Assembly (NCBI RefSeq): GCF_001186125.1
Contig: NW_014040548.1
Location: 32,873-96,872, forward strand
Reading direction: 5' to 3'
Source: Sphaeroforma arctica JP610
Taxonomy: Eukaryota
Length of the DNA stretch: 64,000 bases
A model generated the notes under the pieces. The model saw only the letters and a list, made by a program, of their open reading frames with translations. It ran no database searches and had not been told where the DNA came from. Each line of letters opens with the position of its first letter. Within the stretch, counting starts at the first letter, position 1. The position numbers were made by a program, and so were the translations under genes. This document shows positions 15,800 through 60,600 of the stretch, piece by piece.

Positions 15800-17560
15800 T
15801 ATACAATGTTTATTAGGTGTCTAGTATCACCGTGTGTACCCATAATGATAGGAATATCACTACCCAAGCTGCGATAGTAAAGATGTCACAGAAGTACGAC
15901 TTAATAGTCGGGATGAGCGATTTACTCACTCTAGGTATAACCGTAACAGGCTTTCCCAACAACATAGACCCATTAAAGGATCAGTCAGACGATAATTTTC
16001 TAAAACCATATACACCACCATCGGACACAGTCAAGGAATTAATTACTGGCTTTGCCGATAAGATAATGGATCTTATATTAGTAAATAAGAAGATAAAAAT
16101 AACCGACTGGGCGAAATTCCGCTTCAACGACGGATACGTCAGCCTTGACTGAACCAAGGTAGACTTTACTAAGCTCAAATGTCCTTCAAGAAACTATGTT
16201 TCTTAGAGACACGAAGCTGTAGTTAAAGAACAAGTCGAGAAATGGGTATCCGATGGAGTAATCAGAATCAATTACCAACAAAGGCCAGTTAACTTAGAAT
16301 TATTGGCAGTTGACCAACACTACTCTGACGGAACATTTAAGAAAGTCAGAGTATGTCTAGATATGAGTCCAATAAATAAGTTATTGCCGACTCATAGTTT
16401 TAGGGTTATCAAGTAATGGAGAAAATGTTTCCAGACATGCCTAACGTGCAAGTCTATAGGTATGACATAGTCATCTTTTCTAAGACTAAGGACGAACATG
16501 CCGCATTCGTCAGACGAGTCCTTCAGAGACTCAACGAATAAAAAATGAGAAGAAATGTCCCTTCGCAATGAGCGAAATACAGTTATTAGGCTATCGTATA
16601 TCTGGAACTTGCTCTATCCTTTAAAGGACAAGAGTACGCAGACCGTGGCAGAGTTATGTTGCCAAGTCTTTGCTGACCACGGGTGGCCAAGTATCATGTG
16701 CACTGATAATGGTAGCGAATTCTGCGATGACGTAATGGAATCGGTAGTACTCGTATCAGGCATGTGCCATAAAAGGGGTGTGTACCATATAAACCGCAAA
16801 CACAAGGCGCTAATGAAACGCGCCATATATGACTAAAGTTCTTCTTACGTACTGCATTAACGGATGATGCAGATGATTGGCCGTACCACCTTAAGTGGGT
16901 ACAAACACAGATGAACGAGTGTGCTGATCCGGTTACAGGAACAACACTCGCTCACTATTTTCGTGGTGATTATAGTGAGTTACAAATACCCTTTAACAAG
17001 GACGAACCTGATCATCATGAATTACCATGGTTAGAGAAGGTACAACATTGTATATCCTTGCTTGCGAGAAACACGCAATATTGCCTTATTAAAAAGGCAA
17101 AGTAGATGGAACGCTACCAAAAGATTCAGAGTATCAGGTTGGAGACAGAGTTAACATCCGTCAGCGTAATTCCGATGCTACTATACTAATATCGAAATGG
17201 ATAGGACCATATATAATCTTTGTAGCCGACACTAAAAGTGGAACCTGTGAGGTTAATATCCCCGACGGTTCTCGTGCTTTAAATATATGCACTAGTCGGA
17301 TTCCGACTACTGAGATTATTCTCGAAAGAAGACATGATTCTAGTGCACCTCTTGACCGCTCCAAATTCAAAGATGTTATATGGAGAACGGAAAAAGGAGG
17401 ATATACATATAATCGTACACACTTTATAGACGGTACAATCGCTGAGTTAACTTCAGATGCTTTTGACTATCAGGACTATTTAAAGGTCTTTAACAGAAAA
17501 TGGCGTAAACGCCTACATAAGTCAAAAGCTGAAAAAGATAGCATGTTCCCATCAGCGTAA
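15800..17560 (+). mobile_element. Degenerate, internally deleted Ty3/Gypsy retrotransposon (lineage A, copy A1)
   Basis: Post-protease segment MSQKYDLIVGMSDLLTLGI (paralogous to 21522-21842), RT start KKVRVCLDM, RT DIVIFSKT, a jump directly to the integrase core (GWPSIMCTDNGSEF), and a C-terminal chromo-like segment (THFIDGTIAELTSDAFD). Multiple stops and frameshifts. Confidence 0.85.
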
Positions 17561-17659
17561 GAAACGTCCAGTCGACCACCACGGACCTTTTTGGACCTAA
17601 ACCCAAAATTCACAGGGTAAGCGAGAACGCTTAACTTCTCCGCCTGAGAAACATTAACC

Positions 17660-17864
17660 AAAACTGCCGCCCATTGGCCCTGACCTCCTTCAGCAATTAC
17701 AGGAGTGCCACAACTTCCACGGTATCTGGACCCTCCACGAACACCTTGGATCTTTTCTCCAGCATGTTAAAGAAACACCGTACCCTCACCCGTCCCTGAC
17801 ACATCAACAGATGTTCCCCATACCCCCGGCTATTCACGCTGTTGAAGTACTACTTCCAAATATC
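17660..17864 (+). mobile_element. Fragment of the non-LTR retrotransposon family (C-terminal region), ending at an N gap
   Basis: Near-identical to the reverse complement of ~33425-33630 and ~51800-52000 (PDLLQQLQECHxFHGIWTLHEHLG). Confidence 0.85.
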
Positions 17865-19839
17865 NNNNNNNNNNNNNNNNNNNNNNNNNNNNNNNNNNNN
17901 NNNNNNNNNNNNNNNNNNNNNNNNNNNNNNNNNNNNNNNNNNNNNNNNNNNNNNNNNNNNNNNNNNNNNNNNNNNNNNNNNNNNNNNNNNNNNNNNNNNN
18001 NNNNNNNNNNNNNNNNNNNNNNNNNNNNNNNNNNNNNNNNNNNNNNNNNNNNNNNNNNNNNNNNNNNNNNNNNNNNNNNNNNNNNNNNNNNNNNNNNNNN
18101 NNNNNNNNNNNNNNNNNNNNNNNNNNNNNNNNNNNNNNNNNNNNNNNNNNNNNNNNNNNNNNNNNNNNNNNNNNNNNNNNNNNNNNNNNNNNNNNNNNNN
18201 NNNNNNNNNNNNNNNNNNNNNNNNNNNNNNNNGATAATTCTTGATAAGTGGCAAGTTATTGGTTAATGCAATAACTATGGACATCCAGAGTATTTTTCTT
18301 TTTTCTTTTCTTTTCTTTTTTTCTAAAGATAGGATTTTATGAGTCTTTCGGATTCGCGCCAACGAAACGAAACACTAAATAAAATCCCTTCGGCGAAAAC
18401 AGTACTGAGAGGATTATATATAGGCAATGTCTCAGCCTCGCAATCCCGGAGATTGTTGCTGTTTTATTTCGTGTATTTACTTTGAATTTAATTATACTTA
18501 GACTTAACCTAAGCGTTTAATTACTCTAAGGCGTTAATATCGCCTTGATAGACCGAAATTTAATCTATTCACTTCGTGAGTATCACTCTTCTCATCATGT
18601 TAGGAAATAACAAGATTTATAATATGAACATAATAGCCAACTTTGAACTGAACAATGTTCTTAGTGTTATTCCATCGGTCATACGCTTTAAGTAGAACAT
18701 GATTTTTGTGCTCGAGTAAACAGGGGTAAACAACGTTCTGCATATGCTCGATCTTTTGTAGCTACGGAGTAACGTGTTTCTCGGGTGCAGTTTTGTCAAA
18801 CTTTGCTTGTAATTCACTATAGCGGCCAAAGAAATAGTGAAACGGGAGTGTTCCAGTTTGAGGATTCATGCAGTTATTCATTTGAGTCTGAACCCATTTC
18901 AAATGATTAGGCCACATATCCTCAACGTCATCTAGTGTGGTACTCAATAGCTTCTTTAGTTCTCTATGACGTGTCTCATTTGCACCCTACGTTTGAGGTT
19001 TATAAGGAACACCACGCCTATGGGTCATGCCTGATACGAGTATAAGGGCCTCCATTACGTCGGTACAAAACTCACTACCATTATCAGAACATGGTACTCG
19101 GTGGAAACCGAAGTCATTAAAGACGTGATAGCATACCTCTGCCACTGTTTGCGGGCGTTTGTTTGGTATTGCATAAAGCAAGTTATAGCCCGAAGCCACA
19201 CATATGAAATGACAGATATATACATCGCCAGTATGCTTGGATCGTGGAGTTTAACCAAATCGACTATGACTCGGCGCATCGGTTGGTCTTCTGTCACACT
19301 TTTTAGGGGTGCCCAATTGTAGCGCTTGATCTGGCTCTTTTCACAATCAGTACAGTGTCGGTATACTTCACGTATGATTTCATTCAGCGCCGGGTGATCA
19401 AGCCCTACACGAATAGCCATCTTATAGGTATGCTCATATGCTCGATGAGTTAAATTATGTATTATTTTAACTCTACGCTCGAGCTCTTCTAAGTCAGTCA
19501 GATTCTGTGTAGGGCAACTTCAGTATCAGGAGGGGTAGACTCCTGAGATACGTAATTAACAACATTGGATTGTTGGAGTATCTTCTTCAGTTGTTTCGCA
19601 ACTCCTGGCTGTTTTTGAAGCAGTGTTTTAAGTAGTTGAGTGCGAGCTTCGGGTTCTCTTAGAGCTTTGAGTCTTTGATCCATGGACTTAGCTAGTTCCA
19701 TGTTTTTACGATCTAATGTCGTCTCAATCGGCATTACCTCGACTGTATTCTTGTTGGGTGCATGTGTTGTACGAATCTTGAGCTTTTGTTCAAACTCCTT
19801 AGACTCCTCTAGTTTAGCTAAGAACTCGGTTGAGGGTTT

Positions 19840-20265
19840 TCACTTAGTGGTACCTGCAGGACCGATGCGACAAACGATGGTGTGTTTCCAAGGTGTCTTC
19901 TTAATAGAATAGGATCCCTGATACAAGAACGTGTCGGTTTCACGGTCGACATAGATAGGCTCGTCTTGTATCATATTAATTAAATCACGTATCCATGGTT
20001 CGGAGCTACGTAAGGGACAACACTGCGTAATGGTAGATTTAGTAATATTAACATAATTTAACAACTGTGCGATAAGTTGCCAAGGTGGGTTAGCCCACGC
20101 ATTATGCTTTGATAAGTCAAGTTGAAAGGCATCATCTTTAGGATGAGTCAACGACCTATAATCAGAAACCTGTTTGTTATGTTCTGCGGCGAACATATCA
20201 ATAGTAAATAGACCCCATCTTGATTGAGCGAGGTTGAACCATTTCTTATTAAGCATCCAATCGGT
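19840..20265 (-). other. Dam-like DNA N6-adenine methyltransferase domain within Gypsy pol (copy A2)
   Basis: DWMLNKKWF...FTIDMFAAEHNKQ...DDAFQLDL...AWANPPWQLI...CCPLRSSEPW, in frame directly after the RNase H end (HLPDILSR). Confidence 0.85.
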
Positions 20266-23200
20266 TGCTAATAACTCTTTAACTGTTCTTTGGTAGTCAG
20301 GGACAAGTCGAGAGAGTATGTCAGGAAGATGGTTATTTATTCCTGGTATGTATGTAATGTTAAAAGCGAACTTAGCAATAATGTCATGCCAGCGGCTCAC
20401 CAACTGTGAATCAGGGCCCATGTCCTTTAAATATGTTAAAGACTTTTGATCACAGGCGACAGTAAAGTAACTTCCATAAAGGTAGTCTTTAAACTGTCTT
20501 AACGCAGTAACTATAGCAAGGAGCTCTTGTTTAACGGTAGGGTAATTCCGTTGACTCTTATTATATCTCTTGCTAAATAATTATATGTAGCACTCCACCT
20601 ACCGCTCGATCCGAAACGTCGGTTGCTACTTGGAATGGGACGTCATCCACGGGGTATTGCATGATGGGTGCGTCCATTACTTTACTTCTGACTAGCTTAA
20701 ATGCATCATCACATTCCTTAGTCCAAAATTTTCCCGAAGTTCCTTTGTGCAGCCGTAGGTGACTGAAAGGCTTTAAGTAATGAGAAAGATGAGGTACCGA
20801 ATCCGAGAAGAAGTTAACAAACCCACACACAGAGTTCACATCTCTTCCAGTAATCGATGTTGATAAATCCAACAGAAATTGTTTCTTGCCAGGATCAATT
20901 TCTACCCCTGCTGCAGATACCTTGTAACCAAGTAAGTGTATAGTATCTTTAGCAAAAAAGCACTTGTCTTCGTTAATCTTAAGTTTGGCATGGTTTAGTC
21001 GCTTTAAGACTTCCTTAGCGAGTTTAGCATGTTCATGTGCTGTCTTTGTAAAGATAACTATATCATCTAAAGATACTGATACGTTATCCGACCGGTCCGC
21101 AAATAGTTCCACCATAACATGTTGGAAGAAAGAAGGTAGCATGTGTAAGCCTTCAGGTGCACCTTTAGACTGGTACTTCTTACCTTGCCAAGTAAAGGAA
21201 AAGTATTTCCTACGTGGCTCATATATTTGTAATTGATGGAATGCAGCTTTTTTAAGTCTACCTTGGAAAAGATAGTCGCACCTTCCATTTTGCGTAATAT
21301 CTCGCTGATCTTTGGTTAGGGAAAACTATGTTGCGGAATTAGTTTGTTGATTGGCGACAGTTTTAGTACTACTCTTGTTTTACTAAACGTTTCATCAGAT
21401 TTATATTGATCGACCGCTAAGAGAGTTAAGTTAACTGGGGTTGCATCATAATTGATTTCAATTAGACCCTGTTTTAACCAATCTTCAATTTGGATTTTGA
21501 CAACGTCTTTGTGTCTCCAACTTACGTAGTTATGTGAAGGATATTTTTTAACTTAGAGAGGTTGACGTTTGTTAAGTCAAGCTTAACGTACCCGTTAGAG
21601 AACTTAAACATACACCAGTCAGTTATTGCAATCTTCCTGTTTTGTATAATTAAGTCTATAATTATATCGGTAAAGTGCGGAATCATATCCTTTGCTTCAC
21701 CTTCCGGAGGTTTAGTTATCTTTAACATATTATCATCTGACTGATCTTTATTTGGGTCTATCCCATTTGGCAGACCAATGAGGGTTATACCTAAACTGAG
21801 AAGATCAGTCATACCTATAATTAAATCGTATTTCTGAGACATGTCAGTAACGATTAGGCGAGTCTTTACTTCATGTGTGCATAGTCAATGGCTTCTTCGC
21901 AAGTGGTAACTTTGCCATTTCCCAATATTAAATTAGTTGTTTCGTTATGGATAGCCATATCTGTAGCGTAGGTTACTCGGCGTGAGATAGCTGAGACTTC
22001 AGCCCCTGGATCAAAAAGTGCTATAACTTTTTCTCCATTTATATAAACGGTTTGAAATATACGTTCATCTCCTTTGGTATGGATTTTATTGAACACTTTC
22101 TCATAACCTTGCTCTAGTGCACACATATGGAACTGTCAGTACTTAACTTGGACGTCCGGCATGTCCTTGCAATCATCTTTGTGCCAACCGTTAGTACCAT
22201 TGCAAGTAGTACACTCTTTCATATAGTGTACAGAGTTTGGATTGCCTGGTGCACACTGAAACTTCTGGTAAAGGTATTTTTGTCATCCCGTCTATAATTT
22301 TCCTTCAAAGCTATCCGAAAGCAGGGATGTAGCATATCTTATCTTATCTTACCTTAGAACCATCCTTGAGTCACTCCCCTCCTTCCAAGAGGGAAGGGGG
22401 CTGATGGCTCCCAGGCTACTGAATTAGATGGATACTCACAGCTACTTAAAACATTACAGAGTCGTGTTTACCATTCCACTTGCCATCACGTTTAGTGAGG
22501 TTGTACCCACACTTCTTGCAAGGTGCTCTCTCCTTCCTTTCACCCTTTGGTTCAGTAGCAGTAGAGCTTTTACCACCTCTAGCAGTAGTGCGAGGTTTCT
22601 TAGTATCACGCGCAGTGTTATTCTCTAACGCGGTACGCTTAGCGGGCTGGGTAAAGCTCGCGGTACTAAGTACTCTAATAGATGGGTTGGTGTGCTTTTG
22701 AACTATCTCCTCAAAGACATGCCAAGGCATAGATCGCAAATCACCATTGGCGATGATATCATCATTGACCTTCTTAAAAAGGTTAGCCCTCAGAGTTTCC
22801 ATCATCTGACAAATTAATAAATAATCGTCAGTATAGGTACAACCTCCCATCCGAGTGTTCATATGTGTCATATGAGCTAGAGCACCTCGAATAGTAGTAT
22901 CGTTTGCAAAGGACTTGCGAGACTCTAGAAGTTCACGGTCACGTGCATTTTCAAAGAAGGCGTTAAGTATATTCTCACACAACTGGCGCCAGGGTAGGGC
23001 TTTCCAGTTGGGCTCATGGGCCTTCAAGATAGTTTTCCATTCCTCTGACTCACAGAAATGAATAAAGGCATTCATCATCTGCTTATCCTTAAGGCTGGCA
23101 GACTCCTTAAGTTGGTCAAAGGCCCTCAGTGTCTCCACTGTACTCTCATTAGTAGAGAAATCGACCTCAGCCTTCGCGTTACCTAGCTGCTTTATAAAGC

Positions 23201-24568
23201 TTGGTTCGAAGCGTTCACGAGGCTCACGCTCAGTGCTACTGGCTGCTAGCGCCAAGATAGAGTCTATCTCCTTTCTCTTGTTATCGATTAGATAGCAAAT
23301 GTTATCCGCTTTCTTATCGTCAAGGTCAGAGTCGTTCAATAGACGGTCCTCAAGGACTTGCATACCAGAACGTAATAGCCTGAGAAGCTAAGACGGTGTT
23401 GTCTGGTTCTCACTCCCTCGTCTTCAGAGCTAGAGTGGGTACTCTCTAGTGAGGTACTGGTATAACGATTACCAAAGTCGTGATTACCAGGATTAGATGG
23501 TAAATGAGGATCGATGTTATGAGGGTAGTAAGCCTCATCGATTTCCATACGATCATAGCCTCTAACAGGGTTAGGTTTGTCGAGAGGATGGTCGATTGTA
23601 GCTTCCGAGCTATAGAGATTAAATCTTTAGGTTTTATCCACTTCACCTGCGGTAACTGGCTCAGTGGTAACCCTGCTGGCTGGTAACCCAGTGGGTCCGA
23701 GATTTGAAACCCGGCTCGGAATATATTTTTCTTTGGTATAGAAAGGATATCGGCCACGTGAGATATGATCGAAGGGTCAGAAGCTGCGGCAGCGGCTAGC
23801 TCCTTTGAAAGGTCATCTTTACGGTTCAAATGGCGTCGAGATTGAGAAGATCCAACCACTCGTTGTCGAGTTATGGCGTCCCCAACATCTGCGTCTTCCG
23901 CCCCAACATTCAGTGGCGAGGCATTCAGTGGCGAGGCATTCAGTGGCGAGGCATTCAATAAAATTTCACGAAATGGAACGCCACCATCTTTGTTAATAGG
24001 TGAATTGGGCTGACTTTTAGTAGTAATAAACCGTCGATCTCGAGACGATTCCTCCACTTGTTCAGGAGATATAGCCTTTCCAATATCTGACTTTTCGCGG
24101 TCAAATGGCGAGCTGAGGCCCTGGGCTGCGCTACTAGGAGACATACGGACGCTGGCGAGCCTTTCCGCGGCAGTTGAGACCTCCACTTCCAAGGCTTTAG
24201 GGTCCGACGAGTCATCCTCAGAGTTTTCCTCAGAACCAAGCTCAGAAACAGCTTCGTCTACAGCTTCAACGGCAGGCTCAGTACCAGACGGACAAGCGTC
24301 CCCAATAACCTCATGATCCTCAACAGGCTTAGTAGGCTTAGAACTGGCGGCTCCCTTGCCTTTAGAATTTCCTTTAGCCATAGTAATAGCTCAAGAATAG
24401 GAAATTAATAAAGTCTAGGTATAGTAACTAACGTATAGCTAACTTTAGGGTAGTATTAGCCACTATGAGGTAGTATATAATACTTACAGTCCTATCGCTG
24501 GATAGTAAGCAGTTGTTAGACAGTCTAGAAGCAGTACACCATGGTAACTACTAAATAACTGAAAAATA

Positions 24569-40281: not shown

Positions 40282-43200
40282 GTGGGTCGTCAGAGAGGTC
40301 CGAATTTTGCTGTACAACATGATTGTTTGCATCTATAACTATGTTATCTGGTTGCACATTACCTGGATTATCAATAAGCACGTGCTCAGGTACAAGTACA
40401 GTGTCAATTTGAGGAGGTGGATATTTTGATGCATGCGCATGTGTGTTGTTTGCATCAGATGCTGGAATTGGTTGGTTTTGTGTGGTACTGCTACTATGAT
40501 GGCTTGGTGCAACACCAGTGAGTACCTGTTGTGAGCTATATCGAGTTTCTACATCTTTTTGGTAGATCGCCAATGTATGGCGTGCTAAAGCTGTGCGGTA
40601 GGACCAGATATCAAGATCTGAATATGAGTTTCTATCAGGTGCACTTAATGTTATCGTCTGCGGAGTCATAACTCTTTATGCTTGGTATATATATATGTCT
40701 TTCGCCGTCAGTAAACTCCTCATCACTCACTGTTATTTTATAAACAGTTACCCTACCCGTTGTAGACGGTGTTGCTATCACACTCTTTTAACCTTTCCTT
40801 CCGTTCAAATGTTTATAATCTCGATTCAAACCGATTCTGTTCATATCGTAAATCTATGTGGTGTCATCATACATACATAGGGATAGGAATAATATGGTGC
40901 CTACAACTTGTTTGGCAGCTGCAGGGTCGTTCTTAGGGACCTTGGGCATGATTATAGTACAGGAGTCGCCTTTCTAACCTACTAACCTTAGTAACGTATA
41001 CTAGCACACCATCTCAAATGTTTCGTATACAACAACTTAAAATAGCGCTATCTAACAAACGGATAGTTTGGCGGGCTATTTTTATATACTAATTGAGTTT
41101 GATTAGCTACTAAGAATACATTAAACTTGTCGCGTGGTAGGTTTGAACTCTAGACAGCTGTCAAATGGTTCGTTTTGGCGGGCGTTCTGTACATTATTCG
41201 GATGAGTGAGCAATTTTTCGACGACTACAGATATCGAAATACAAGCTGTATCTGACCTGAAGTCTTTTGATAATTGGTGTATTGATGTATCTTGTTTCAA
41301 CTCTTGAAGTGTGAGATTGTATGGGAGTGTGGCATTGAGAGCTCATGACAATACTCGAACTGGACACGCTTTCCGTGATCCCGCCATTACATATTTTCAT
41401 GTTCCGCATATAAGGAACGATGCTATACCAATTCAACACCTTTCAGGGTGACTCTATCGACTGGATACCATGCAACACGCTCGAAGCAATGGTTGTTTAC
41501 CGACTCATGAACGCTCACTCACACAGAGTTCAATGTGCCGTGTCCTCAGTGGCTGCTCACCACTAACCTAGAGTGTACAGGTTGCCCGCCTGCACGTCAA
41601 GCATATAGATATACTTGTCACCCACGACTAACACTCTTGTCAATCAACGCGTAGCGTCCTACTGTCAATCTTATTTTGATTTCCTTTACAATACAGCGTA
41701 GCATCATATCAATAAAAGTAATACAACACGACATAGCGATCTCCTATATACGAAGCTTGATGCACGTCGAATGTAGGTGTGTCGAATAGTTTGAAAGCTA
41801 TGCGCCTGCTGGGTATCTATCTGATAAGGCTGCGTCTATGTATGAATATTTCATTAAAAAACCGATATGATACCACATCCTCCATCTGTTTGTGTCTGCA
41901 GTACGAGCATGCAGAAAGTGCGCAACCCCGGCCAGACATACCATCGACCAAAGCTGCTTCAACACTGTGCCAGCAGTCGCTGTCGTCGACTCTCACGTTT
42001 CTGAATACGCTTACGACAAGCTGGCACCACGGTCGGATCATCGAATGCATCAGCTGTCGCCCAAGTAAGAGATCCTTCTAGCCAGCGCCCCAGGTACTCG
42101 AATTGTTGAGTCGTCTCCTTGTGGCGATGCGATATGATGTGTCGAAATGTCGATTCCCCTTCTCGCCAAAGCGATTCATCTAGCAGTGGTTCCGTAGTTT
42201 GGTGGGCCAGCCTAATAATGTTTACATTAACCGAACGGTCTTTGAGCTCCGGTCACTTGCTGTTGATCCGAACACTTGAGCCATGCATAAGCCATTTGTT
42301 CCAATTTGCGAATGGTACATGGCGGCGATCAAAGTAAACACTGAACGGAGCAGACTCGTGACGCCGTGATATTCAGGGATTTTGATAAAGTGCAGTGAAC
42401 GGTAAACGCTCATACCACAACTCCGGAAAGCCTACACATAATGCTCGTCCATTGTTTGCTCGTATATAAAAATATGTTTATCCCGACTATAAATGACATA
42501 TGATCCAAGCAGTGGCTTCAAAGCTTTAGCAGAAAGCCCATTGCTTGTGCAAGTATCACGACCACGTCCCCAGTCTTAAATTCAATCATATCGAACTATC
42601 GCATTTAATCGGTGGCATCCACCACGGCATCAGTATACTTGATAGTTTTTCTAACGAAACTTGGCAGGATATTCTTTCCAGCACACATTTGCAAATTTCT
42701 TATGACGTCGCTCGGCAGCGACCGGGGTCTGAGGTTGGTATGACTGAGATGTCTTATCAATAATTCGGAGCACCCGTGTAATAGGGTTGGTATGGCTGAT
42801 ATGTCTTATCAATAATTCCGAGCACCCGCGTAATAGCTTTCACGATACTATTCACAAACTCGTTGCCTTCATCGCTTTGACTCCTAGGAGAAAACTCATG
42901 CTCGCCAAACACCGATACTAATTCTGTCTCCATGGTTTTGCGTCCTTTGTAGGTACTGCGCGAAAAATGGAATACTCCGACACCACATCCAATATATATA
43001 GAATAAATTTGCTTCCTTTCGTTGATACACTCGCCATAATAATGATATCTATTTGTATATGATCCCATGTGTATCGTGCGGTAATATTCATTGAAGGATT
43101 TAACCCTTTCTTCATAGTGCATTCTCTAAGGACATACGACAAAATTTCCGTACCCTTCCGCGATTAGAAGTATTTGGTCTCCCTTGTGACCATCATCTCG

Positions 43201-43449
43201 CATATGTTTATACAGTGGATACTGGCGCCGGATGGCCCTGTTCATGACACTGCCATATCAGCTGTGCCGACGATGACTTCCTCATGCTCTGAGTGGTTGA
43301 TCGCAACAGCCCCGGCACGTATTTCAGGACCTTGTCGAGTATGCCTGGTCATATCCTTCTGTGGCCAGCTCTCTTGAAAACGGGCAGTAGCCTTTTCACA
43401 CACAGGTATCTCTAGACCCAGATTACAGCAAATCGATAGGTTGTCCTTG

Positions 43450-43870
43450 AATCCAGAGGGAGGTACAATGTGTACAACAATGGTATGCTCCCAAAGATAC
43501 TTGCCACAGGCCTGCGAGCCATGTTTCAACCAAGTAAAAGCCTTGCGAGAGATACTTAGCGGCTCCGTCTGCGTCATTTACAGGAGCAATGGAAACCATG
43601 ACGCTCGTGTATTCAACGGCAGGCATATTGTTGCAGATGCTTCATCCGCCAACACCCTGCGTAGTACCTCATGTATCATGCGCCACGGGTGGTTCCTCCA
43701 TGCGCTGTATTAACTTCAGTCAAAACTTGAACGTCCCCTATCCCTGTCGTACCACCAGTACTGTCGAAGTTGGGCTTTGTGGCTAGATGAAAAGGCATCG
43801 ACATCGTACATTGGGTTCAAAATGATTTTGAACTTGGTCATAGAAATCTGGATACAACAACTTCCAACAA
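43450..43870 (-). pseudogene. Decayed Dam-like methyltransferase domain in copy B1
   Basis: CWKL...YDVDAFSSSHKAQLRQYW...AWRNHPWRMIHEVLRRVLADEASATICLPLNTRASWF...ACGKYLWEHTIVVHI across frameshifts. NHPW at 43694-43683. Confidence 0.75.
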
Positions 43871-46669
43871 GATGTATTCGACACAGTCGAGAAGCTAACA
43901 TCTGACGTACTCTCATGAATGCGACTCCACTTGTCCGGTAACTTGTCCAATTCACCTGGTACATGTGTATTTGTGAAATAAATTGTGTGCAGCATACTGA
44001 TCAATTTCAACTGTGTGTTCATATAAACGAGCTGCGTGTGATCCGTGTGTATGAGAACTCGCTGTCCGATTAAGTGATCATGGAAGTGCACCAGTAGATA
44101 TATACGAGCTAGCAGTTCCTTTATGGGTGTTGCATATGTTTGCTGGGTCTTTTCAAGTATCTTTGAGGAGAATATAAGAATTTCTTCGGCAATAGCATAA
44201 CCACTTGCTTTATTTCCAACTCTAGTGGCACACCATCTACAGTAAAGTTCAAACGGATCGCCGACACGATCGCTTCCTTCATCTGATCCCATGTCAATTG
44301 ATGTTCTGGTTCTCAACTTTCTTCAATCGATACCCTTTGGTTTAAGATTAGCGAACGCACACATAGGGACTTGACCTTATGCGCAAAGTTGAAGTAATTG
44401 CTCGTGTAATAAATTTGCCTGTCTTAATCCGGAAGCAATATCCTTCTGACATCTTGGTATTAACCAATCGATTGAACGTTGCTGTTTCTCATGAACAACG
44501 ATAAGACTCTTAGCAGACACCTTCCTTCCGAGTATAAATATATCTTCCACAGAAAAGTGACACTTCTGATTCAGTTTTAAATTGTTATCCGTTAACAATT
44601 GAATGATCTCCTGAACAGTAGCAATGTATTCCTCGTAGTCATTCGACGCAATGATAAGATCATCGACATGGCATTGTACATTCAATCTAGCCATCAGGTT
44701 GCTGATCGTACGCTGAATTGTGAAGTGAGTGTTGTCAACCAAACTATTGTTGGATATCCCATGTAAATAAAGCATATGCTGAGAGTCAGCATGTACAGGC
44801 AATCGATGGTATGGTACCGACAAATAAAATGTTGTGCAATATTGCTTAACCTTCATGCTGATGATCTCGCTGACCTTTGGTAGCGTGAATTGATCCCCTG
44901 AAATGAGTGCATTGAGCTGTTGTAATTCAAACACACACATACTTTGATAAGCTCTACTGACGATATAAAGGATGGTACAGCCAACAATAGAAGGTTCACA
45001 ATCGATACCAAGGTCCGAAGATTGGTGACCAACTCATGTTCCCATTTGTGAACCCACATTGATACATGTGGTTTATATTCATCGGATACGAAAATTCGTG
45101 CCATTCTCCGGCGTGTACAATTGTATTTACAAATATTTAATAGAAGATTGTTTGTTTGTTTGTTCTGTTTTTGCATTTTCAATATATCTAAATTCAGATT
45201 ATTCGATTATTTTGCATTTTACAAATACCTACAATTGCGTTTCAACGTATACCAGGGTTAAAACTGTATTTAATACGTTTGAACGTTCATACTCCATAGT
45301 CTACGTTCATTGTATACCTCTACTATGGGAACCCGCTGTTTTTACTTTAGGCATGTTCTTAGAGTCTCATGAGATGTACAAAATATACCCTGTGTGCAAC
45401 GCGCGTGTAACTTCTAAGCGTCCACTCGCCTTTGCTTGCATCGTTGGATTAGTACAGATGGATGACTTGCATTTTGTGTCATTTTCGCAGCTGTGGATTC
45501 AGTGATGCATGCATATTTTTATGTTCTGTTGCTTACTGCATTTGTGTTCACGGCCTACGAGTCTAATAAGTAGCGATTATGATCCGCAGAGGGAATTTCT
45601 CCGGTGTGCTAGCGACTTTAAAAACATACTGATTCTCCTTTATTTTTGTGTAAAGTGAATGTGCACGTTGGTGACGTTGTAGCTTGTCACGAAATATATT
45701 TGCTGCTGCTGTCTGATCTTGATTGCGCGGATGTCGCGAAATAAGCTGTTTTTATCACTGTGATCTCCGATATGCAGACAAATTTCGCGAGTGTTGTTTA
45801 CACGTTGCAAAAAAAAAAACAACAGTTCCCGTCCAAACAGGTTTTGCCAAGGTACGATGCTGTAGTCAGAACCGAGTAACGCTCCACAGCCCAACCAAGT
45901 TGAATTCTGGTCTTTCAAGAACTTTTCCTTAAAGATACTCTGTCTTAAGTTATAAAAATAAAAGTACAAGAGTAATATTTTACACGGATCGTGGGGTTAC
46001 TGCATCTAAAAGCGTAATAGCTTATGACTAAAAACAAATACGTTTATGAAGAATACCAAAACTTTTCGCGTCTTTTCCGCCTAAGGTGTGGATGCCTACC
46101 AGTATACTAGGTATCTATCCTAATAGCAGTTTACGGTTTTCTTTTCCCTCTTATCATAGGTTTGACGAAGCATATAATTGCCCGTGTCGTCAACGATCGA
46201 TGGGTACAAGTGACAGCCCCGCCTGCCACCCAATAATATTTCGCATGTTCCGCCTTCTACGTAATATTGCTATGCACGTACTTTCTTCCACGTATTGATG
46301 CTATGCACGGTCCGCCTTCTACATAACAATGTTGTACATGTTCCGCCTTCTACGTGATACTTCTACACATTGGTCCGTCTGGTACGTAATAATGTTATCC
46401 AACTCAACACTACTCAGGGCGACTATACAACACGCTTGAGGCTGCGGTTGCTCACCGAATTATAAGTGCTCGCTCAAAGTTCAATGCGACGTGTCCTCAT
46501 GGTTGCTCGCCTCGGAGTAAGAGTAAACAGGGTGCTCGCCTGCACTCTCAGCATCTATATAAACATACAGTCTATTATGTCGAATGAGTGCCATGCAACA
46601 CGTTCTGCCCTGCAACACGCTCGTGAAGCTGCGGTTGCTCACCGACTCTAAAGTGCTTACGCAAAACTC

Positions 46670-53694: not shown

Positions 53695-53737
53695 ATAACA
53701 TATGTCGTAAATAATTACGACTGAAATATCACGCAGT

Positions 53738-55786: not shown

Positions 55787-57284
55787 CTCGACGATTACGG
55801 TTCGAGCGCACCGTCCTACCGAGTAGGCATATCTGAAGATAAAAATTTAGATTTGGGCACGTTGGCGTTTACGTGTCCGTGTCTGCGAAGCTTTGTGGTA
55901 GACCGCGATATCGTTGGCATCATCAAAAGCCGCCGATGTTTTCCACGTTGGATCGCCTTCACGCCATCGCACCAAGTATTCCAATTTCCCTGTTCCATCA
56001 TTAGTACGGTGTGCAATAATGTGGCGAAACTCAGCACCTCCTTCTGTCCACAATTCGTCGTTAAGTGGTGGGTCTGTGCGCCTATGCACTAACCGGAGGA
56101 GTTCCACCCGTACCGGTTTGTGATTGAATTCTGGAGGGGCGGATCCATCTTTATTCGCTAACTCATATCGTTGTCCGATCCTGACCTTCACCATATACGG
56201 CCCAAACAGTGGCCGCATTGCCTTAGTCGTTCTACCCTCCGATCGTATCGTAACCACATCGCCTTCGTCGAAATGGACCAAGTCATGAGCGTGTTGGCGG
56301 TCAAATGTCTTCGTAAGTTTGCCTGTATACTTCTTGGTAATGTGGTGGAGAGTCGGCAGTATAGTATCCTGCAACTGGCCTAACCGTTGTGCCCAGGTGT
56401 CGTTCGTCATCGGCTGGGTATCCGGTAAGTCACCAGTGAAGTCGGCAAATGGTACATGACGGCGGCCAAAATATACACTGAACGGCGCGCTCTTGTGACG
56501 TCGGGATATCCGAAGGTTCTGGTAGAGCATCGTAAACGGAAGGCGTTTGTCCCATCGTAGAGGAACTCCCTCACAGCATTGTCGAATGGAACGTGTATTC
56601 TCCTTATGACGGCGTTCAGCGGCACCCAGTACATGGCGGTGACACCTTGTGTAGCATACCCACTTCTTGGACCAGTAGCTCCACTATCTTGTTAGTTAAT
56701 TCATTCCCCATGTCCGTCTGGATCATACGTGGGAAACCATGCTCGCCAAAAACTTATATTAGTGTCTGTGCCGTTGTCTCCTTCGTCTTGTCCGGTGTCG
56801 CTCGAAGGATTGAGTAGCCTGTAGCAATGTCCAGGACGTGAAGTATATAATTATTCTTTCGTCTGGACTCAAGTGGTATCGGTATATAGTCGACTTGAAT
56901 ATGGTCCCACGGTTAGCGCGCGTCAATGCTAATCATCGGGTGGAAACCTTTACGAAGATTATCCTGTCCCAAACATGTGGCGCACTGCCGTTTGACTTCC
57001 GTTGCTAACTCAAGTGCGCCCGGCCACACATGACCGTTCTGACGGAGTTGTTAAACTGTATCAGCCGCACCATGATGTCCTTGTTCGTGGTGCGCTTGTG
57101 TGAGTCGCGTACGGCATTGTTGTTCTTCTGGCGTCGCCCGCTCAACTGCCGGTTGACCTTCTGCATCCGCCATTGCCACCGAGATCTCTCGCGCAGTATC
57201 TAACCACATTACGTACGTTGTGTGTTTTGGTTCTGCATACCCAAGTCGCTGTGATAACAGCGGGTCCAGTTTGAACCCGTTAGG

Positions 57285-57690
57285 GGGTCCCACTCGTGTA
57301 ATCACTATGTGTCCCCATGGCGTCTTGCCACAGGCATACTTAGCATACTTGAGGAACGTGTGTGGCGTTCATGGGACCAGTACTGATTCTGATTGCAACA
57401 ACTGTTTGAACAGGTCAAACCATGGTGCCCTTGGTGCCCATGGCAGACACACCATTGCCCTCGCACCATCGGTCCTTATCTTGCGTAACATTCCATTTAT
57501 CTTTTCCCATGGTGGGTTCATCCATCCATCGACTGTCGACCAGTCGTGGGCAAACGCCCCTTCCCCGTCGTCTTTAGTCCAAAATCGAGGAAGCTGAGCG
57601 TTAGACGGGTCCGCAAATACATCTATATTGTTCGGACCGAAGTGTTGTTGCGCTTGTTCAAAGTAACTAAGGAATAACTGCCAACAGTCT
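57285..57690 (-). other. Dam-like DNA N6-adenine methyltransferase domain within Gypsy pol (copy B2)
   Basis: DCWQL...FGPNNIDVFADPSNAQLPRFWT...AFAHDW...WMNPPWEKINGMLRKIRTDGARAMVCLPWAPRAPWF...(one in-frame TGA at 57371-57369)...CGKTPWGHIVITRVGP. Confidence 0.88.
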
Positions 57691-60600
57691 GTGTACAGTA
57701 TTTCAGGTCCGTCCTGCTCCGCTGTCCCCTCATTTACTTTGCTCAACATGTCCGGAAGCACGTTTGTCTCTCCTGGTATAGGTGATATGGTAAAGTTGAA
57801 CGGTGCTATAATATGGTGCCATCTCTGGAGCATCGGATTAAGCTTGAGCTGTGTATTCATATACACCAGGGCCTTGTGGTCCGTAAGACCGCAAACCGTT
57901 GCCCATCCAAATGTTCCCTAAAATGTGTCAGCCCGTACACCAAGGCTAGTAACTCTTTCATTGGTGTAGCGTAGTTCTGTTGCGCATGGTTCAGAGTCTT
58001 GCTAAAGAACATCAAATATTGTTTCTTCCCGTCGACCCATTGGAATAACGCTCCCCCCAAACCGTAATCGCTAGCATCGGTTTCCAAGTTCAATGGTATA
58101 CCGTCGACCGGAAAGTGCAACGCCACGGCATTGACAACTGCATCCTTCATCGCCTGCCACGCCTGTGCATGTCTTTCCTCCCAACGATCGCCGATCAACT
58201 CCTTCGGTTTGAGTTTGCAAAACTCGTGCAAAGGTGCAACCGTGTTTGCGAAGTTGAGAAGATGTTCATGAAGATAATTAACCAATCCTAAGGCAGAGAC
58301 TATGTCGTTGTACCGTAGTGGGGTAGGCCAGTCGATAAGCTTGGTCTGCTTCTCATGATCAATATCTATGCCTTGTGCCGACACCTTTTTTCCTAGGATC
58401 ACCACTTCGGGAATAGCAAAGTGGCACTTGGCGGGGTTGATCTTAAAACTGCGGTATGTTAAACGTTTTCGAATATGTTCGTCATAGTCGTCGCTGGCAA
58501 TAACTATATCGTCGATATAGTTGTGGACCGGCAAGCCGTCCAGTATTGTGCTCAAGGTTTGCTGGAACTGTTGCGTGAGCACATGGAGTCCAAACGGCGC
58601 CGATGTAAACGAGTACTGATAACGCTCGTGTGTAAGCTAAACAGATATTGTGAATCGGGATGGATCGGTAGCCTATGATATACCGCCGATATTTCCAGCT
58701 TAGTGTAGTACTTCTTACTCTTGAGGCGAGAGATAAGTTCGTTGACCTTGGGAATCAAGAACTGGTCGCCCGGAATAAGCGCGTTGACAGCACGCATATC
58801 TAAACATACGCGTACCTTCTTCACGTTCTCTTCTGCAACAAACGTCGGGCCCGTAAGGAGCGGGAGGTTAACAGTCGTCGGTGTCGTCCGCTTCGTGATC
58901 ACCAAATCCGCCAACCACTTCTTCACCTGCTCGTCCACGTATGGTAGCCACCGGTCGGATACAAAGTTATGCGTTGATATGCGCATGTGCATCGCCTGTT
59001 CACGGGTTACCGGAATGGTAACTTCGCTCTCTTCCAGACGACATCGCGCCTTGTCAGCAATCTGCGCATTCGCCTCTAAATCCTGTGCCAGCCGTTGACG
59101 TGCATCGGCGGGTTCCGTCGTGCTCGGTGCCTGTCGTCGTGGGATGGGTTCGAGGAGCTCGTCGAGTTCTGTGGGGTCTATTGGTGCAAGTGGAGATCGG
59201 ATGCCGCCTATGTATAGACCTAAGCCTTTCAACATATCTTGTCCCATTATGATGTCTATTTCTGCCGGTAAATTCATCAATTCCAGTGACCCGTCGATAA
59301 TCTTGGTCCCATACCGAATGGGTACCGCTTCCATCGTCCCCAGTCGAGGAGTTCGAACCGCCTTGTCAGCTAATTATATGAATGTCCCATGTGGTGCTGG
59401 AGTTATTGGGCGGCCGAGGAGGTCTGCGGATGTCTGTGAGATACAACTTCTGTTTGCTCCCGTGTCTAACAATGCTTTGAACGTAAGTCCATTAACTTGC
59501 ACTTGAATATAAACTCGGTCATTAGAAGACAGTAATGGGTCCTGTATTGCCATCACTTCCCTAATAGTATTAACAAATGTGAAGCTCATCTCCGACTCAG
59601 AAACCCTCACATACACCGTGGCCCTGGTCTGGTTCCAGTATTGTGTGCTCGAAGTCTTCCGTGAGTATCGTGTTGATGTGTACCTCTGTAGCTGCTGATG
59701 GTGGTATGAAACTTTCGTCCTTTGTAATCGCGTTCACCTGTACATGCGGAGTCGGGCGTGTAGTGACCAAGTCTTTGCCCGGGTTGTTGGACTGTCCCTG
59801 TCCTAAGGTTGGAGCTGCGGACGGTCTGTGTACCGGTTGTGCGTCTCGTGATGTGCGGTTGGTGTCATACGGCCGCGCCCTGCCGTCCGTACTCCCTGGG
59901 GGCTACGCTCGGAAATGGTGACTTCGCAAAATATGACGTAAACCTGGCGGTGCTTGTGCCTGACATCCAGCACACGTTGTAGGTAATGTCGGCTGGGGTC
60001 GCTGTGCCCAGTTCTGTGACTGTCGTCGAACCGTCTGCGGGTTAGTGCGGCTATTGGTGTAGTCACGAGCCCCATTACTTGGTGGACCTTCGCGATTATT
60101 ACGGTTCTGAAATCGCGCCGCATTGCGCTGCTGTGCGTCCTGAATGTCGGGACTCAACAACTGTAGAGTGAGTCTTCATTTACTGCCATTTGGGATGCAA
60201 CTGTAGAGTGCGTTCATACGTACGGCCGTTGAGAGCTTCCTCGAACAGTTGAACAATGCAATAGTTTGATAAATTCTGTTGGAAATCTTCATCTGTCTGG
60301 CATCGTTCACGTGCCCTCCTGCTATTCTCCATGAGCTGTGTCATTTGTTCCATGATGGGGGTATGCATGTTTCGACTGTGGCCCTTGGCAAGCTTACGAA
60401 ACGCGAGATCAACAGTGGCTTGCGTCTCATGTGAGCAAATCCGTTCGATTTGTAGTTGTGGCGTCCACATCTTCAATCGTTCAGAATTGTCACGTATGTA
60501 ATCCAATGTTGACTTCTCAGCCTTAAAGTAAGATAATACCTTGTGGAACCATGTAAGGTTCCAACTCTCATCTAACCCTGCGATCTGCGCGTTCTTAAAA

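What the first reader, a model, noticed from the sequence alone, without database searches (positions are those of the whole stretch)
19840..20421. A second, divergent Gypsy lineage has the same methyltransferase at the same position
Seen: copy A2 has different gag, protease (DPG) and LTRs from B2. It still reads HLPDILSR (RNase H end), then DWMLNKKWF..FTIDMFAAEHNKQ..DAFQLDL..WANPPW (20091-20080)..CCPLRSSEPW..TFL..KTPWKHTIVCRIGP in one uninterrupted frame before the integrase. Motif residues (D-x-FA, N-x-Q, AF-x-x-D, W-x-NPPW, P-x-x-x-x-x-PW, KTPW-x-H) are kept while the linkers diverge strongly from B2. Inference: the MTase is ancestral to a clade of these elements and was under purifying selection, so it is not a one-off capture.
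Basis: partly seen in the sequence, partly recalled or inferred. Interest (0 to 1): 0.85.

Follow-up and report, generated by a model that had tools for sequence, protein, structure and literature searches.

The report
Gypsy retrotransposons sharing an inherited adenine methyltransferase
Two very different Gypsy-type jumping genes in this window carry the same adenine-methyltransferase-like domain between RNase H and integrase, inherited from a common ancestor and kept by selection, but this kind of element was already described in a 2026 preprint, and what the enzyme likely methylates is still untested.

Summary
Window 19843-20580 (minus strand) is one open frame of 246 codons. It runs from the end of RNase H into a 142-residue domain that matches Pfam Dam PF05869 above its cut-off, with NPPW exactly at 20091-20080. 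The frame ends in a TGA that is private to this decayed copy.

A second Gypsy element, B2 (55850-61631), has no detectable gag similarity to A2 and only 39% RT/RNase H identity to A2's intact relative P0002. It carries the colinear domain in the same slot.

In separate trees of RT/RNase H, integrase and the methyltransferase, A and B fall in one strongly supported clade. Every sampled member of that clade carries the domain. Three members are named Abeoforma whisleri, an ichthyosporean.

Across nine intact polyproteins the domain is as conserved as RT (40% against 44%). The neighbouring linker is at 12%.

This is the DAM-LTR class of Fernandez-Moreno et al. (bioRxiv, May 2026), so it is a new member of a known kind.

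Two additions come from this work. The closest solved fold is the mRNA cap adenosine methyltransferase PCIF1, not DNA Dam. The clade also appears to have a hidden chromodomain, which the preprint says it lacks.

The parts
18233..24390 (-). A2: decayed Ty3/Gypsy element (gag, protease, RT, RNase H, MTase, integrase). Its 3' end is cut by an N gap and no LTRs were found.
   Evidence: Frame map; Pfam; 77-94% protein identity, piece by piece (the MT-IN linker 67%), to the intact 1400-aa polyprotein P0001; no repeat pair.
22449..23387 (-). A2 gag-like frame (313 codons). No similarity to B2 gag.
21525..22135 (-). A2 aspartic protease in two frames, with active-site motif DPG.
   Evidence: 78-83% identical to P0001 residues 1-204, where Pfam finds Asp_protease_2.
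20576..21552 (-). A2 reverse transcriptase and start of RNase H, in two frames.
   Evidence: Pfam RVT_1 E 9.2e-19 and RT_RNaseH_2.
19843..20580 (-). A2 open frame of 246 codons: end of RNase H followed by the methyltransferase-like domain.
19843..20268 (-). A2 adenine-N6 methyltransferase-like domain (142 residues). It carries D-x-F-A, N-x-Q, D-A-F, NPPW, and the clade-specific KTPW.
   Evidence: Pfam Dam 30.4 bits; alignments; AF2 model of a 147-residue stretch (19843-20283, this domain plus 5 residues upstream) with pLDDT 89.5; fold matches.
20080..20091 (-). NPPW, the catalytic motif IV of adenine-N6 methyltransferases.
   Evidence: N is kept in 14 of 15 clade rows, PP in 15 of 15, W or F in 15 of 15.
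19840..19842 (-). TGA stop ending the domain. It is private to this copy; the family reads TGG (Trp).
   Evidence: At 19840 nearly all contigs of 4 of 4 runs read C. P0001 and P0002 have W there.
19501..19839 (-). Poorly conserved linker between MTase and integrase, in the same frame as the MTase.
   Evidence: 32% identity with 60 gapped columns between P0001 and P0002.
18603..19519 (-). A2 integrase (zinc finger, DDE core, C-terminal part), broken over three frames.
   Evidence: 85-94% identical to P0001 residues 900-1198, where Pfam finds rve.
55850..61631 (-). B2: second, divergent and decayed Gypsy element with the same domain order.
   Evidence: Frame map; Pfam.
57255..57698 (-). B2 methyltransferase-like domain (NPPW and KTPW kept), interrupted by an in-frame TGA at 57371-57369.
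55850..56095 (-). B2 C-terminal module, predicted to be a chromodomain.
   Evidence: Pfam Chromo E 1e-3, 19.4 bits, below the 25.1 cut-off; AF2 model; all 50 listed Foldseek rows are chromodomains.
41700..45033 (-). B1: heavily decayed B-like copy with remnants of the same domain around 43450-43900 (NPPW now NHPW).
   Evidence: Pfam RVT_1 and RNase H; sister to B2 in the FastTree RT tree (98).
15817..17560 (+). A1: A-like copy with an internal deletion that removes RT, RNase H and the MTase.
   Evidence: Self-BLAST: 15883-16401 matches 21842-21322 and 16606-16985 matches 19184-18807.

Best explanation
The stretch is the dead remnant of an adenine-N6 methyltransferase-like domain built into the Pol polyprotein of a Ty3/Gypsy retrotransposon, between RNase H and integrase, and the two Gypsy lineages of the window inherited it from a common ancestor rather than capturing it twice. 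In working copies the domain is likely an active, SAM-dependent enzyme. It would methylate adenines of the element's own newly made nucleic acid (cDNA or RNA:DNA hybrid), so that new insertions would sit in 6mA-marked, transcription-permissive chromatin.

Shown here: the domain order, the common descent of A and B, strong conservation of the domain and its catalytic motif, and a methyltransferase fold.

Inferred (from the preprint's data and model, not tested here): catalytic activity, the substrate, and the effect on chromatin.

My odds: membership and common descent about 0.9. For the mechanism: DNA or hybrid 6mA writer about 0.4, RNA writer about 0.2, inert binding module about 0.25.
For: Architecture:
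- Pfam finds RNase H followed by Dam in A2 and in B2.
- The intact relatives P0001 (1400 aa, 87% identical) and P0002 (1376 aa, 69%) read protease, RT, RNase H, MTase and integrase in one protein.

Common descent:
- The RT/RNase H tree has a 13-row clade, all carrying the domain, at 99/94.
- The MTase tree has a 15-row clade at 100/100.
- The integrase tree has the 13-row clade at 99.
- B2 and P0148 are sisters in all three trees.
- B2's RT/RNase H is closer to P0002 (39%, 178 bits) than to any of the 134 generic Gypsy hits (best 36%, 143 bits).

Selection:
- MTase identity is 67% against 32% for the linker, and 40% against 12% across nine polyproteins.
- The N of NPP is kept in 14 of 15 clade rows. 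PP, the aromatic residue and the D of D-x-F-A are kept in 15 of 15.

Fold:
- The AF2 model has pLDDT 89.5 and pTM 0.86.
- In the second-look list the 37 best rows are adenine-N6 methyltransferases: PCIF1 Z 9.8-10.8, KsgA/Dim1/Erm about 8-9, and one 'putative RNA methyltransferase' (PH1948). T4 Dam follows at 7.7 and E. coli Dam at 7.6, with a few other methyltransferases between. The independent search agrees.

Function:
- In the preprint's Results and Discussion, DAM-LTR copies in two ichthyosporeans carry more 6mA and more transcripts than other LTR elements.
Against: - The preprint's own test found no rise in 6mA when DIRS, DAM-LTR and adintovirus DAMs were expressed in dam-deficient E. coli.
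- Iyer, Zhang and Aravind 2016 placed the DIRS1 domain in the PCIF1 clade and judged all copies likely inactive (passages read).
- The closest solved fold is an RNA cap methyltransferase, not a DNA enzyme.
- The closest intact relative, P0001, reads CPPW instead of NPPW.
- The A2 and B2 copies themselves are dead, with stops and frameshifts, so nothing here is expressed as an enzyme.
- The 6mA enrichment in the preprint is a correlation and could be laid down by the host's AMT1.
- The clade's equivalence with the preprint's 'ichthyosporean lineage' rests on 3 of 15 rows named Abeoforma whisleri. I did not see the preprint's sequences.
Confidence: 0.5

Rival explanations
1. The domain works on RNA, like PCIF1/CAPAM. 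It would N6-methylate an adenosine of the element's own transcript (for example next to the cap) or of the RNA strand of the replication intermediate, changing RNA stability, translation or packaging rather than marking DNA.
For: PCIF1/CAPAM is the best solved match by three routes:
- Foldseek E 2.8e-4 and 9.2e-4, the only 2 rows at E <= 1e-3.
- Second look: Z 10.8, rmsd 2.6, 129 of 147 residues aligned.
- Foldseek-independent search of 48,161 chains: Z 10.4, against 8.7 for the next row.
The next rows are rRNA adenine methyltransferases. DNA Dam enzymes score 7.6-8.0. Two DIRS-type relatives give weak Pfam PCIF1_WW hits over the same residues as Dam (P0230 4.9e-5, P0133 3.5e-4). Iyer et al. 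2016 place the DIRS domain in the PCIF1 clade. The negative DNA assay in E. coli would be expected under this reading.
Against: By sequence the domain matches Pfam Dam, not the PCIF1 model, in A2 and B2. A profile of 24 domains finds no PCIF1 chain in the PDB by sequence. No phage-type Dam appeared among the solved structures, so PCIF1 may rank first only for lack of a closer solved relative. The margin is under 2 Z units. PCIF1's WW domain and helical cap-binding part are absent. The preprint reports DNA 6mA enrichment on these elements.
Confidence: 0.2
2. The domain is catalytically inert. It is kept as a nucleic-acid or protein binding module: it would hold the template RNA, shape the Pol polyprotein, or mimic a host factor.
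For: Iyer et al. 2016 judged all DIRS1 copies likely inactive. There was no activity in E. coli. The domain is short (about 142 residues) and, per the preprint, lacks the first catalytic and first target-recognition parts of bacterial Dam. P0001 has CPPW. Several DIRS-type relatives have F in place of N. Earlier scan notes report Rozella elements that lost the motif (not checked here).
Against: In the clade that holds A and B the catalytic N-P-P-aromatic motif is kept in 14 of 15 rows and the D-x-F-A SAM-pocket motif in 15 of 15. That is hard to explain for a mere scaffold. Invariant columns over 24 diverse domains are just these motif residues.
Confidence: 0.25
3. A and B acquired the domain independently from DIRS elements, landing by chance in the same slot (convergent capture).
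For: The preprint infers at least four independent DIRS-to-LTR transfers. In my trees P0207 carries the domain but its RT lies with ordinary chromoviruses. The nearest relative without the domain, P0014, carries a dUTPase in the same RNase H-integrase slot, so the slot does accept cargo.
Against: The A and B methyltransferases share a 100/100 clade that holds no DIRS row. The same elements are one clade in the RT/RNase H tree (99/94) and in the integrase tree (99). The C-terminal G-x-TPW signature (HPW in one row) is present in 15 of 15 clade rows. It is absent from the 2 DIRS rows and the 4 other LTR rows aligned with them.
Confidence: 0.03
4. The architecture is an artefact: a DIRS fragment nested in a Gypsy copy, or a mis-assembly.
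For: The window is full of nested and broken repeats and N gaps. Both window copies are decayed.
Against: Intact single proteins from other assemblies read through RNase H, MTase and integrase: P0001, P0002, P0148, P0181, P0184, P0137, P0284 and others. The junction from RNase H to the domain is 88% identical between P0001 and P0002. The A family is highly repeated in four runs with the same order.
Confidence: 0.02

Closest known systems
DAM-LTR retrotransposons, 'Ichthyosporean DAM-LTR lineage' (Fernandez-Moreno et al., bioRxiv 10.64898/2026.05.21.726589, 22 May 2026; I read the outline, Results and Discussion)
   Same: Ty3/Gypsy Pol with a Pfam-Dam-type domain related to the DIRS methyltransferase; NPP-aromatic motif kept. 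Three of the 15 clade rows are named Abeoforma whisleri, one of the preprint's three host species.
   Different: The window shows two deeply split sub-lineages side by side (39% RT/RNase H identity between B2 and the A lineage's P0002, no gag similarity). B has no relative above 44% RT/RNase H identity among the proteins searched. The preprint says the lineage lacks chromodomains; here a divergent one is predicted. Intact A-lineage proteins score below Pfam's Dam cut-off (22.9 and 26.2 bits against 28.1), so domain screens may miss them.
DIRS1-type retrotransposon methyltransferase domain (Goodwin and Poulter 2001/2004, cited in PMC6338049; Iyer et al. 2016, PMC4738411)
   Same: Homologous domain placed after RNase H. 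DIRS-like P0003, P0004 and P0005 are 28-30% identical over 98% of the A2 frame and share D-x-F-A, N-x-Q, D-A-L/F and NPPF.
   Different: DIRS elements use a tyrosine recombinase and have the domain at the end of Pol. Here a DDE integrase follows (Pfam rve). The LTR clade has its own long stem and the G-x-TPW signature.
PCIF1/CAPAM, cap-specific mRNA adenosine N6-methyltransferase (PDB 6irv-6is0)
   Same: Best solved structural neighbour of the A2 domain model: Z 9.8-10.8 with 128-142 of 147 residues aligned. It is also an adenine-N6 enzyme.
   Different: No sequence-level match. Only 12-14% identity in the structural alignment. PCIF1's WW and helical domains are absent. PCIF1 is a cellular gene acting on capped RNA.
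Phage-type DNA N6-adenine methyltransferase, Pfam PF05869 (Dam)
   Same: A2 and B2 score above the family's cut-off, over profile positions 9-82 of 169. P0148 reaches 53.8 bits.
   Different: Only the first half of the profile is matched in A2. The domain is embedded in a retrotransposon Pol. No activity has been shown.
Chromoviruses (Ty3/Gypsy with a chromodomain after integrase)
   Same: B2's C-terminus is predicted to fold as three strands plus a helix, and all 50 listed fold matches are chromodomains. It aligns with the Pfam-confirmed Chromo regions of P0196 and P0178.
   Different: Pfam scores are below the cut-off (19.4 against 25.1). The model's alignment included true chromodomains, which may bias it.

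Membership tests
DAM-LTR retrotransposons (Fernandez-Moreno et al. 2026) | Ty3/Gypsy-type RT and RNase H with a DDE integrase in the same element | tested here: met
   Pfam RVT_1 and RT_RNaseH in A2 and B2; rve in the intact relatives P0001 and P0002; A2's integrase pieces are 85-94% identical to P0001.
DAM-LTR retrotransposons (Fernandez-Moreno et al. 2026) | A Pfam-Dam-type domain encoded within Pol | tested here: met
   PF05869: A2 30.4 bits, B2 39.0 bits, cut-off 28.1. It lies in frame with RNase H.
DAM-LTR retrotransposons (Fernandez-Moreno et al. 2026) | Long terminal repeats flanking the element | tested here: inconclusive
   No repeat pair was found around A2 or B2. An N gap and nested repeats lie at the expected places.
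Ichthyosporean DAM-LTR lineage of that preprint | Groups with elements of Pirum, Abeoforma or Sphaeroforma in DAM and RT trees | tested here: met
   A2 and B2 fall in the clade that holds the Abeoforma whisleri proteins P0135, P0137 and P0138 (MTase tree 100/100; RT tree 99/94; names). The preprint's own sequences were not seen.
Ichthyosporean DAM-LTR lineage of that preprint | Lacks a chromodomain (as described in the preprint) | tested here: inconclusive
   Pfam Chromo is below cut-off in B2, P0284, P0139 and P0134. But the B2 C-terminus model matches only chromodomains.
Pfam PF05869 Dam (phage-type DNA N6-adenine methyltransferase) | Score at or above the curated cut-off | tested here: met
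   A2 30.4 and B2 39.0 against 28.1. The intact relatives P0001 (22.9) and P0002 (26.2) fall below it.
Pfam PF05869 Dam (phage-type DNA N6-adenine methyltransferase) | Catalytic (D/N)PP(Y/F/W) motif present | tested here: met
   NPPW at 20091-20080. It is also in B2 and in 14 of 15 clade rows.
Pfam PF05869 Dam (phage-type DNA N6-adenine methyltransferase) | Methylates adenine N6 in DNA | not testable with these tools
   The preprint's E. coli assay with related domains was negative.
PCIF1/CAPAM clade | Structural similarity of the methyltransferase core | tested here: met
   Z 10.8, rmsd 2.6, 129 residues aligned; Z 10.4 in the independent search; Foldseek E 2.8e-4. All of this rests on a predicted model.
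PCIF1/CAPAM clade | Sequence match to the PCIF1 family, and an N-terminal WW domain | tested here: not met
   No PF12237 or WW hit in A2, B2, P0001 or P0002. No PCIF1 chain was found by profile search of PDB sequences.
DIRS retrotransposons | Tyrosine recombinase instead of a DDE integrase; DIRS-type RT | tested here: not met
   rve integrase follows the domain. RT/RNase H groups with Gypsy. The DIRS-like P0003 and P0005 score only 17-18 bits against the Gypsy RT/RNase H profile.
Chromoviruses | Chromodomain at the C-terminus of integrase | tested here: inconclusive
   B2: Pfam Chromo 19.4 bits, below the 25.1 cut-off. The fold prediction supports a chromodomain, but the alignment used contained true chromodomains.

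The most novel reading that the evidence does not exclude
These Gypsy elements carry a two-part epigenetic kit that domain screens miss: a hidden chromodomain reader plus a methyltransferase whose nearest solved relative is the mRNA cap enzyme PCIF1. The enzyme methylates the element's own RNA or RNA:DNA replication intermediate, not duplex DNA. That is why DNA assays in E. coli came out blank.
Probability: 0.2. Interest if true: 0.65.

Novelty: new member of a known kind. Interest (0 to 1): 0.3.

Why it matters
Retrotransposons that bring their own nucleic-acid methyltransferase are a way for a genomic parasite to write, and not merely evade, the host's epigenetic marks. This window shows that one such domain was kept through a deep split of a Gypsy clade, with conservation equal to that of reverse transcriptase. 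That argues it is needed for the element's life cycle.

The practical gains are modest:
- It is independent confirmation of a very recent preprint.
- It is a warning that Pfam cut-offs miss part of the clade. Intact A-lineage proteins score below the Dam cut-off, and the chromodomains score below the Chromo cut-off.
- The fold points to an RNA-type adenine methyltransferase. That gives a concrete substrate panel for the assay the field still lacks.

Tried and rejected
- **Earlier scan notes.** Look-ups by place and by sequence gave nothing.
- **LTR search.** Repeat finder and BLAST, down to word size 7, found no LTR pair for A2 or B2.
- **B2 methyltransferase frame against longer proteins.** 184 candidates, none at E <= 1e-5.
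- **B2 RT/RNase H frame.** 134 hits, best 36% identity. None of the 120 listed is flagged Dam.
- **Metagenome scan.** With the single protein, the 13 loci returned match only 16-21 residues, partly in gut-bacterial contigs. I judged them chance matches and did not use them.
- **Profile searches of PDB sequences.** Only chance hits, E >= 0.22.
- **P0122.** This Gypsy protein lay next to the clade in the first FastTree tree but not in the careful ones. It has no MTase-like region by hhalign (probability 0.2%).
- **Expression.** No RNA holder is listed. Two runs guessed to be RNA hold contigs of the A family, but that does not show transcription.
- **Laying reads on B2.** So B's copy number, and whether its stop is private to this copy, stay open.
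- **Nucleotide-level dN/dS.** Not possible. No DNA of intact relatives could be fetched.
- **Monophyly of all MTases of the wider Gypsy clade** (15 rows plus P0178, P0214, P0196). Not rejected (AU p 0.352, lnL difference 6.29), so the number of captures above the A+B node stays open.
Full report
**What is at the coordinates**

The window is eukaryotic, repeat-rich DNA with several N gaps. On the minus strand, 20580-19843 is one open frame of 246 codons. Pfam reads this frame as the end of a Gypsy-type RNase H (RT_RNaseH, E 2.5e-17) followed by Dam, PF05869 (E 3.9e-7, 30.4 bits against a cut-off of 28.1).

Around it lies a whole but decayed Ty3/Gypsy element, A2 (about 18233-24390). It has gag, a protease with DPG, RT, RNase H, the methyltransferase-like domain, a linker and a DDE integrase, spread over three frames with several frameshifts. 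The frame does not run on into the integrase: it ends in TGA at 19842-19840.

That stop is private to this copy. When contigs of four public runs were laid on A2, nearly all of them read C at 19840 in 4 of 4 runs, which gives TGG. Both intact relatives have tryptophan there. The family is highly repeated in those runs (58,511 pieces laid in X1, 16,368 in X3, 2,512 in X16 and 237 in X17, at 85% likeness).

**The second lineage**

B2 (55850-61631, minus strand) has the same order of parts. Its frame 57917-57372 matches Dam at E 8.5e-10 (39 bits). The domain continues after an in-frame TGA at 57371-57369. The A2 and B2 gag frames show no similarity (all E >= 1.5). The proteases share 39% over 31 residues, with DPG in A2 against DTG in B2. 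B2's RT/RNase H piece is 39% identical to the A lineage.

A third, heavily decayed B-like copy (B1, 41700-45033) keeps remnants of the domain. An A-like copy (A1, 15817-17560) has lost RT, RNase H and the domain through an internal deletion.

**Relatives**

The A2 frame finds two intact polyproteins. P0001 (1400 aa) is 87% identical and P0002 (1376 aa) is 69% identical. Both read protease, RT, RNase H, the domain and integrase in one protein. The same search finds DIRS-like RT-RNase H-Dam proteins at 28-30% identity.

B2 has no close relative. Its domain frame found nothing among longer proteins. Its RT/RNase H frame found 134 generic Gypsy proteins, at best 36% identical, and none of the 120 listed is flagged Dam.

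A profile of the A, B and DIRS domains, run against 1.84 billion representatives, found 13,500 proteins at E <= 0.001 and 4,763 at E <= 1e-10. Of the 154 proteins in hand that carry the domain, 15 also have a Gypsy-type RT/RNase H. Pfam shows the order RNase H, Dam, rve in 7 of the 11 new proteins of that set that I scanned whole (the other 4 show RT, RNase H and Dam without rve at E <= 0.001), and Dam followed by rve in two N-truncated ones. Some also have a Chromo domain.

- *RT/RNase H, first trees.* A FastTree of all 132 rows placed A and B together, but weakly (support 53). A careful tree of 42 rows gave A+B 99/91, with P0014 as sister at 100/98.
- *RT/RNase H with the other domain-bearing Gypsy proteins added.* This tree had 47 rows: 17 with the domain and 30 without. 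The 30 were picked by hand from the 129 Gypsy rows. A2, P0001, P0002 and B2 fall in a 13-row clade at 99/94 in which every row carries the domain. B2 is sister to P0148 at 99/91.
- *Methyltransferase.* This tree had 46 rows: 19 LTR-borne and 27 DIRS-like, the latter taken as every second one of 53. The same elements, plus two N-truncated ones, form a 15-row clade at 100/100 with no DIRS row inside. B2+P0148 recurs at 96/52. The bootstrap had not fully settled.
- *Integrase.* A quick tree of 41 rows gives the same 13-row clade (SH-aLRT 99) and B2+P0148 (89). The A2 piece filled only 28% of the columns.

Three rows of the clade carry a source name, and all three are Abeoforma whisleri. So A and B are two deep branches of one Gypsy clade that had the domain before they split.

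One level up the picture is open. A wider Gypsy clade (100/100 in the RT tree, 99 in the integrase tree) adds three more domain-bearing proteins and P0014. P0014 has a dUTPase in the same RNase H-integrase slot. The methyltransferases of those three sit among DIRS domains, but holding all 18 together is not rejected (AU p 0.352). P0207 is a clear separate case: its RT lies with ordinary chromoviruses.

**Selection**

Between P0001 and P0002, identities per region are:

| Region | Identity | Gaps |
|---|---|---|
| MTase domain | 67% | 0 columns |
| RT | 61% | 1 column |
| RNase H | 70% | 0 columns |
| Integrase core | 53% | 0 columns |
| Linker after the domain | 32% | 60 columns |

Over 35 pairs among nine full-length clade members, mean identities are:

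| Region | Mean identity | Gapped |
|---|---|---|
| RT | 44% | 0.1% |
| MTase domain | 40% | 2% |
| RNase H | 38% | 1.5% |
| Integrase core | 33% | 2.3% |
| Linker | 12% | 46% |

Within the 15 clade rows, the N of NPP is kept in 14 (P0001 has C). PP, the following W or F, and the D of D-x-F-A are kept in all 15. A C-terminal G-x-TPW signature (HPW in one row) marks the clade against the DIRS-type domains. I could not compute dN/dS, because no DNA of intact relatives was available.

**Fold**

An AlphaFold2 model of the A2 domain is confident (pLDDT 89.5, pTM 0.86). The matches are:

- Foldseek against the PDB gives only two rows at E <= 1e-3, both PCIF1/CAPAM, the cap-specific mRNA adenosine N6-methyltransferase.
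- A second look gives PCIF1 at Z 9.8-10.8 (rmsd 2.6-3.6, 128-142 of 147 residues aligned), rRNA adenine dimethyltransferases at about 8-9, T4 Dam at 7.7 and E. coli Dam at 7.6.
- A search that does not depend on Foldseek gives PCIF1 at 10.4, the next row at 8.7, T4 Dam at 8.0 and M.TaqI at 7.0.

There is no sequence-level match to any solved chain. The domain is therefore a compact adenine-N6 methyltransferase core. Its nearest solved neighbour acts on RNA, with a margin of under 2 Z units. My motif reading (D-x-F-A as motif I, D-A-F as motif III, NPPW as motif IV) rests on recalled knowledge of M.TaqI-type enzymes, not on a call.

**What is known**

Fernandez-Moreno et al. (bioRxiv, 22 May 2026; outline, Results and Discussion read) report the following:

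- 10,030 eukaryotic DAM proteins.
- The first DAM domains in non-DIRS LTR elements.
- At least four transfers from DIRS to Gypsy.
- An 'Ichthyosporean DAM-LTR lineage' in Pirum, Abeoforma and Sphaeroforma that 'lacks chromodomains'.
- A conserved NPP pocket.
- More 6mA and more transcripts on DAM-LTR copies.
- A negative methylation assay in E. coli.

Iyer, Zhang and Aravind (2016; passages read) had placed the DIRS1 domain in the PCIF1 clade and judged it likely inactive. The fold result here agrees with their placement. The motif conservation here argues against inactivity in this clade.

My three full-text searches found no earlier report of a Dam-type domain in Gypsy elements. A 2019 opinion paper lists DAM only for DIRS. 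Earlier notes of this scan report the same class in other genomes, with the motif lost (not checked here).

**Side finding**

B2's C-terminus gives a sub-threshold Pfam Chromo hit (E 1e-3). So do P0284, P0139 and P0134. It aligns with the Pfam-confirmed chromodomains of P0196 and P0178. A model of it (pLDDT 77.1; three strands and a helix) matches only chromodomains in all 50 listed rows (best E 5.6e-3, probability 1.00). The alignment used for the model contained true chromodomains, so this needs an independent test.

**Verdict**

The element belongs to a class published as a preprint six months before this scan. It is a new member of a known kind. Two leads are worth a bench test: the substrate (DNA or RNA) and the hidden chromodomain.

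Noticed in passing
window 55850-56095 (-); also P0284, P0139, P0134: The C-terminus after the integrase gives sub-threshold Pfam Chromo hits and is predicted to fold as a chromodomain. The preprint says this lineage lacks chromodomains.
   Followed up: yes
P0014 residues 935-1063: The nearest relative of the clade without a methyltransferase carries a dUTPase in the same RNase H-integrase slot. The slot seems to take different cargo.
   Followed up: partly
P0001 residue in the NPPW motif: The closest intact relative of A2 (87% identical) reads CPPW instead of NPPW, while the decayed A2 copy keeps NPPW.
   Followed up: no
P0001, P0002: Intact A-lineage polyproteins score below Pfam's Dam cut-off (22.9 and 26.2 bits against 28.1), so Pfam-based surveys would undercount this lineage.
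   Followed up: partly
window 18233-24500: Places where the family's contigs differ from A2 are mostly transitions, with A2 holding T or A where the family has C or G (in X1: T>C 60, A>G 52, against C>T 32, G>A 45). This is as expected for C-to-T decay of an old copy.
   Followed up: no
window 23449-24390 (-): A 314-codon open frame lies upstream of A2's gag. It is acidic and serine-rich, with a threefold NASPL repeat. No family match was sought. It may be an N-terminal gag part or a separate gene.
   Followed up: no
window 55598-55813: Six tandem copies of a 27-base unit lie directly 3' of B2's Pol stop.
   Followed up: no
window 34252-35636 (-) and 53010-53714 (-): Two copies of another retroelement with an RVT_1 match (E 7.6e-10 for the second), 83-85% identical to each other. 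Flanking repeats recur at 17658-17864, 33298-33709 and 51678-52055.
   Followed up: no
window 1753-2208 (+): An exon-like frame matches deoxyhypusine synthase (Pfam DS, E 7.4e-50). It is a host gene near the repeat cluster.
   Followed up: no
window 15817-17560 (+): The A-like copy A1 lies tail to tail with A2 across the N gap. It lacks RT, RNase H and the methyltransferase through an internal deletion.
   Followed up: partly
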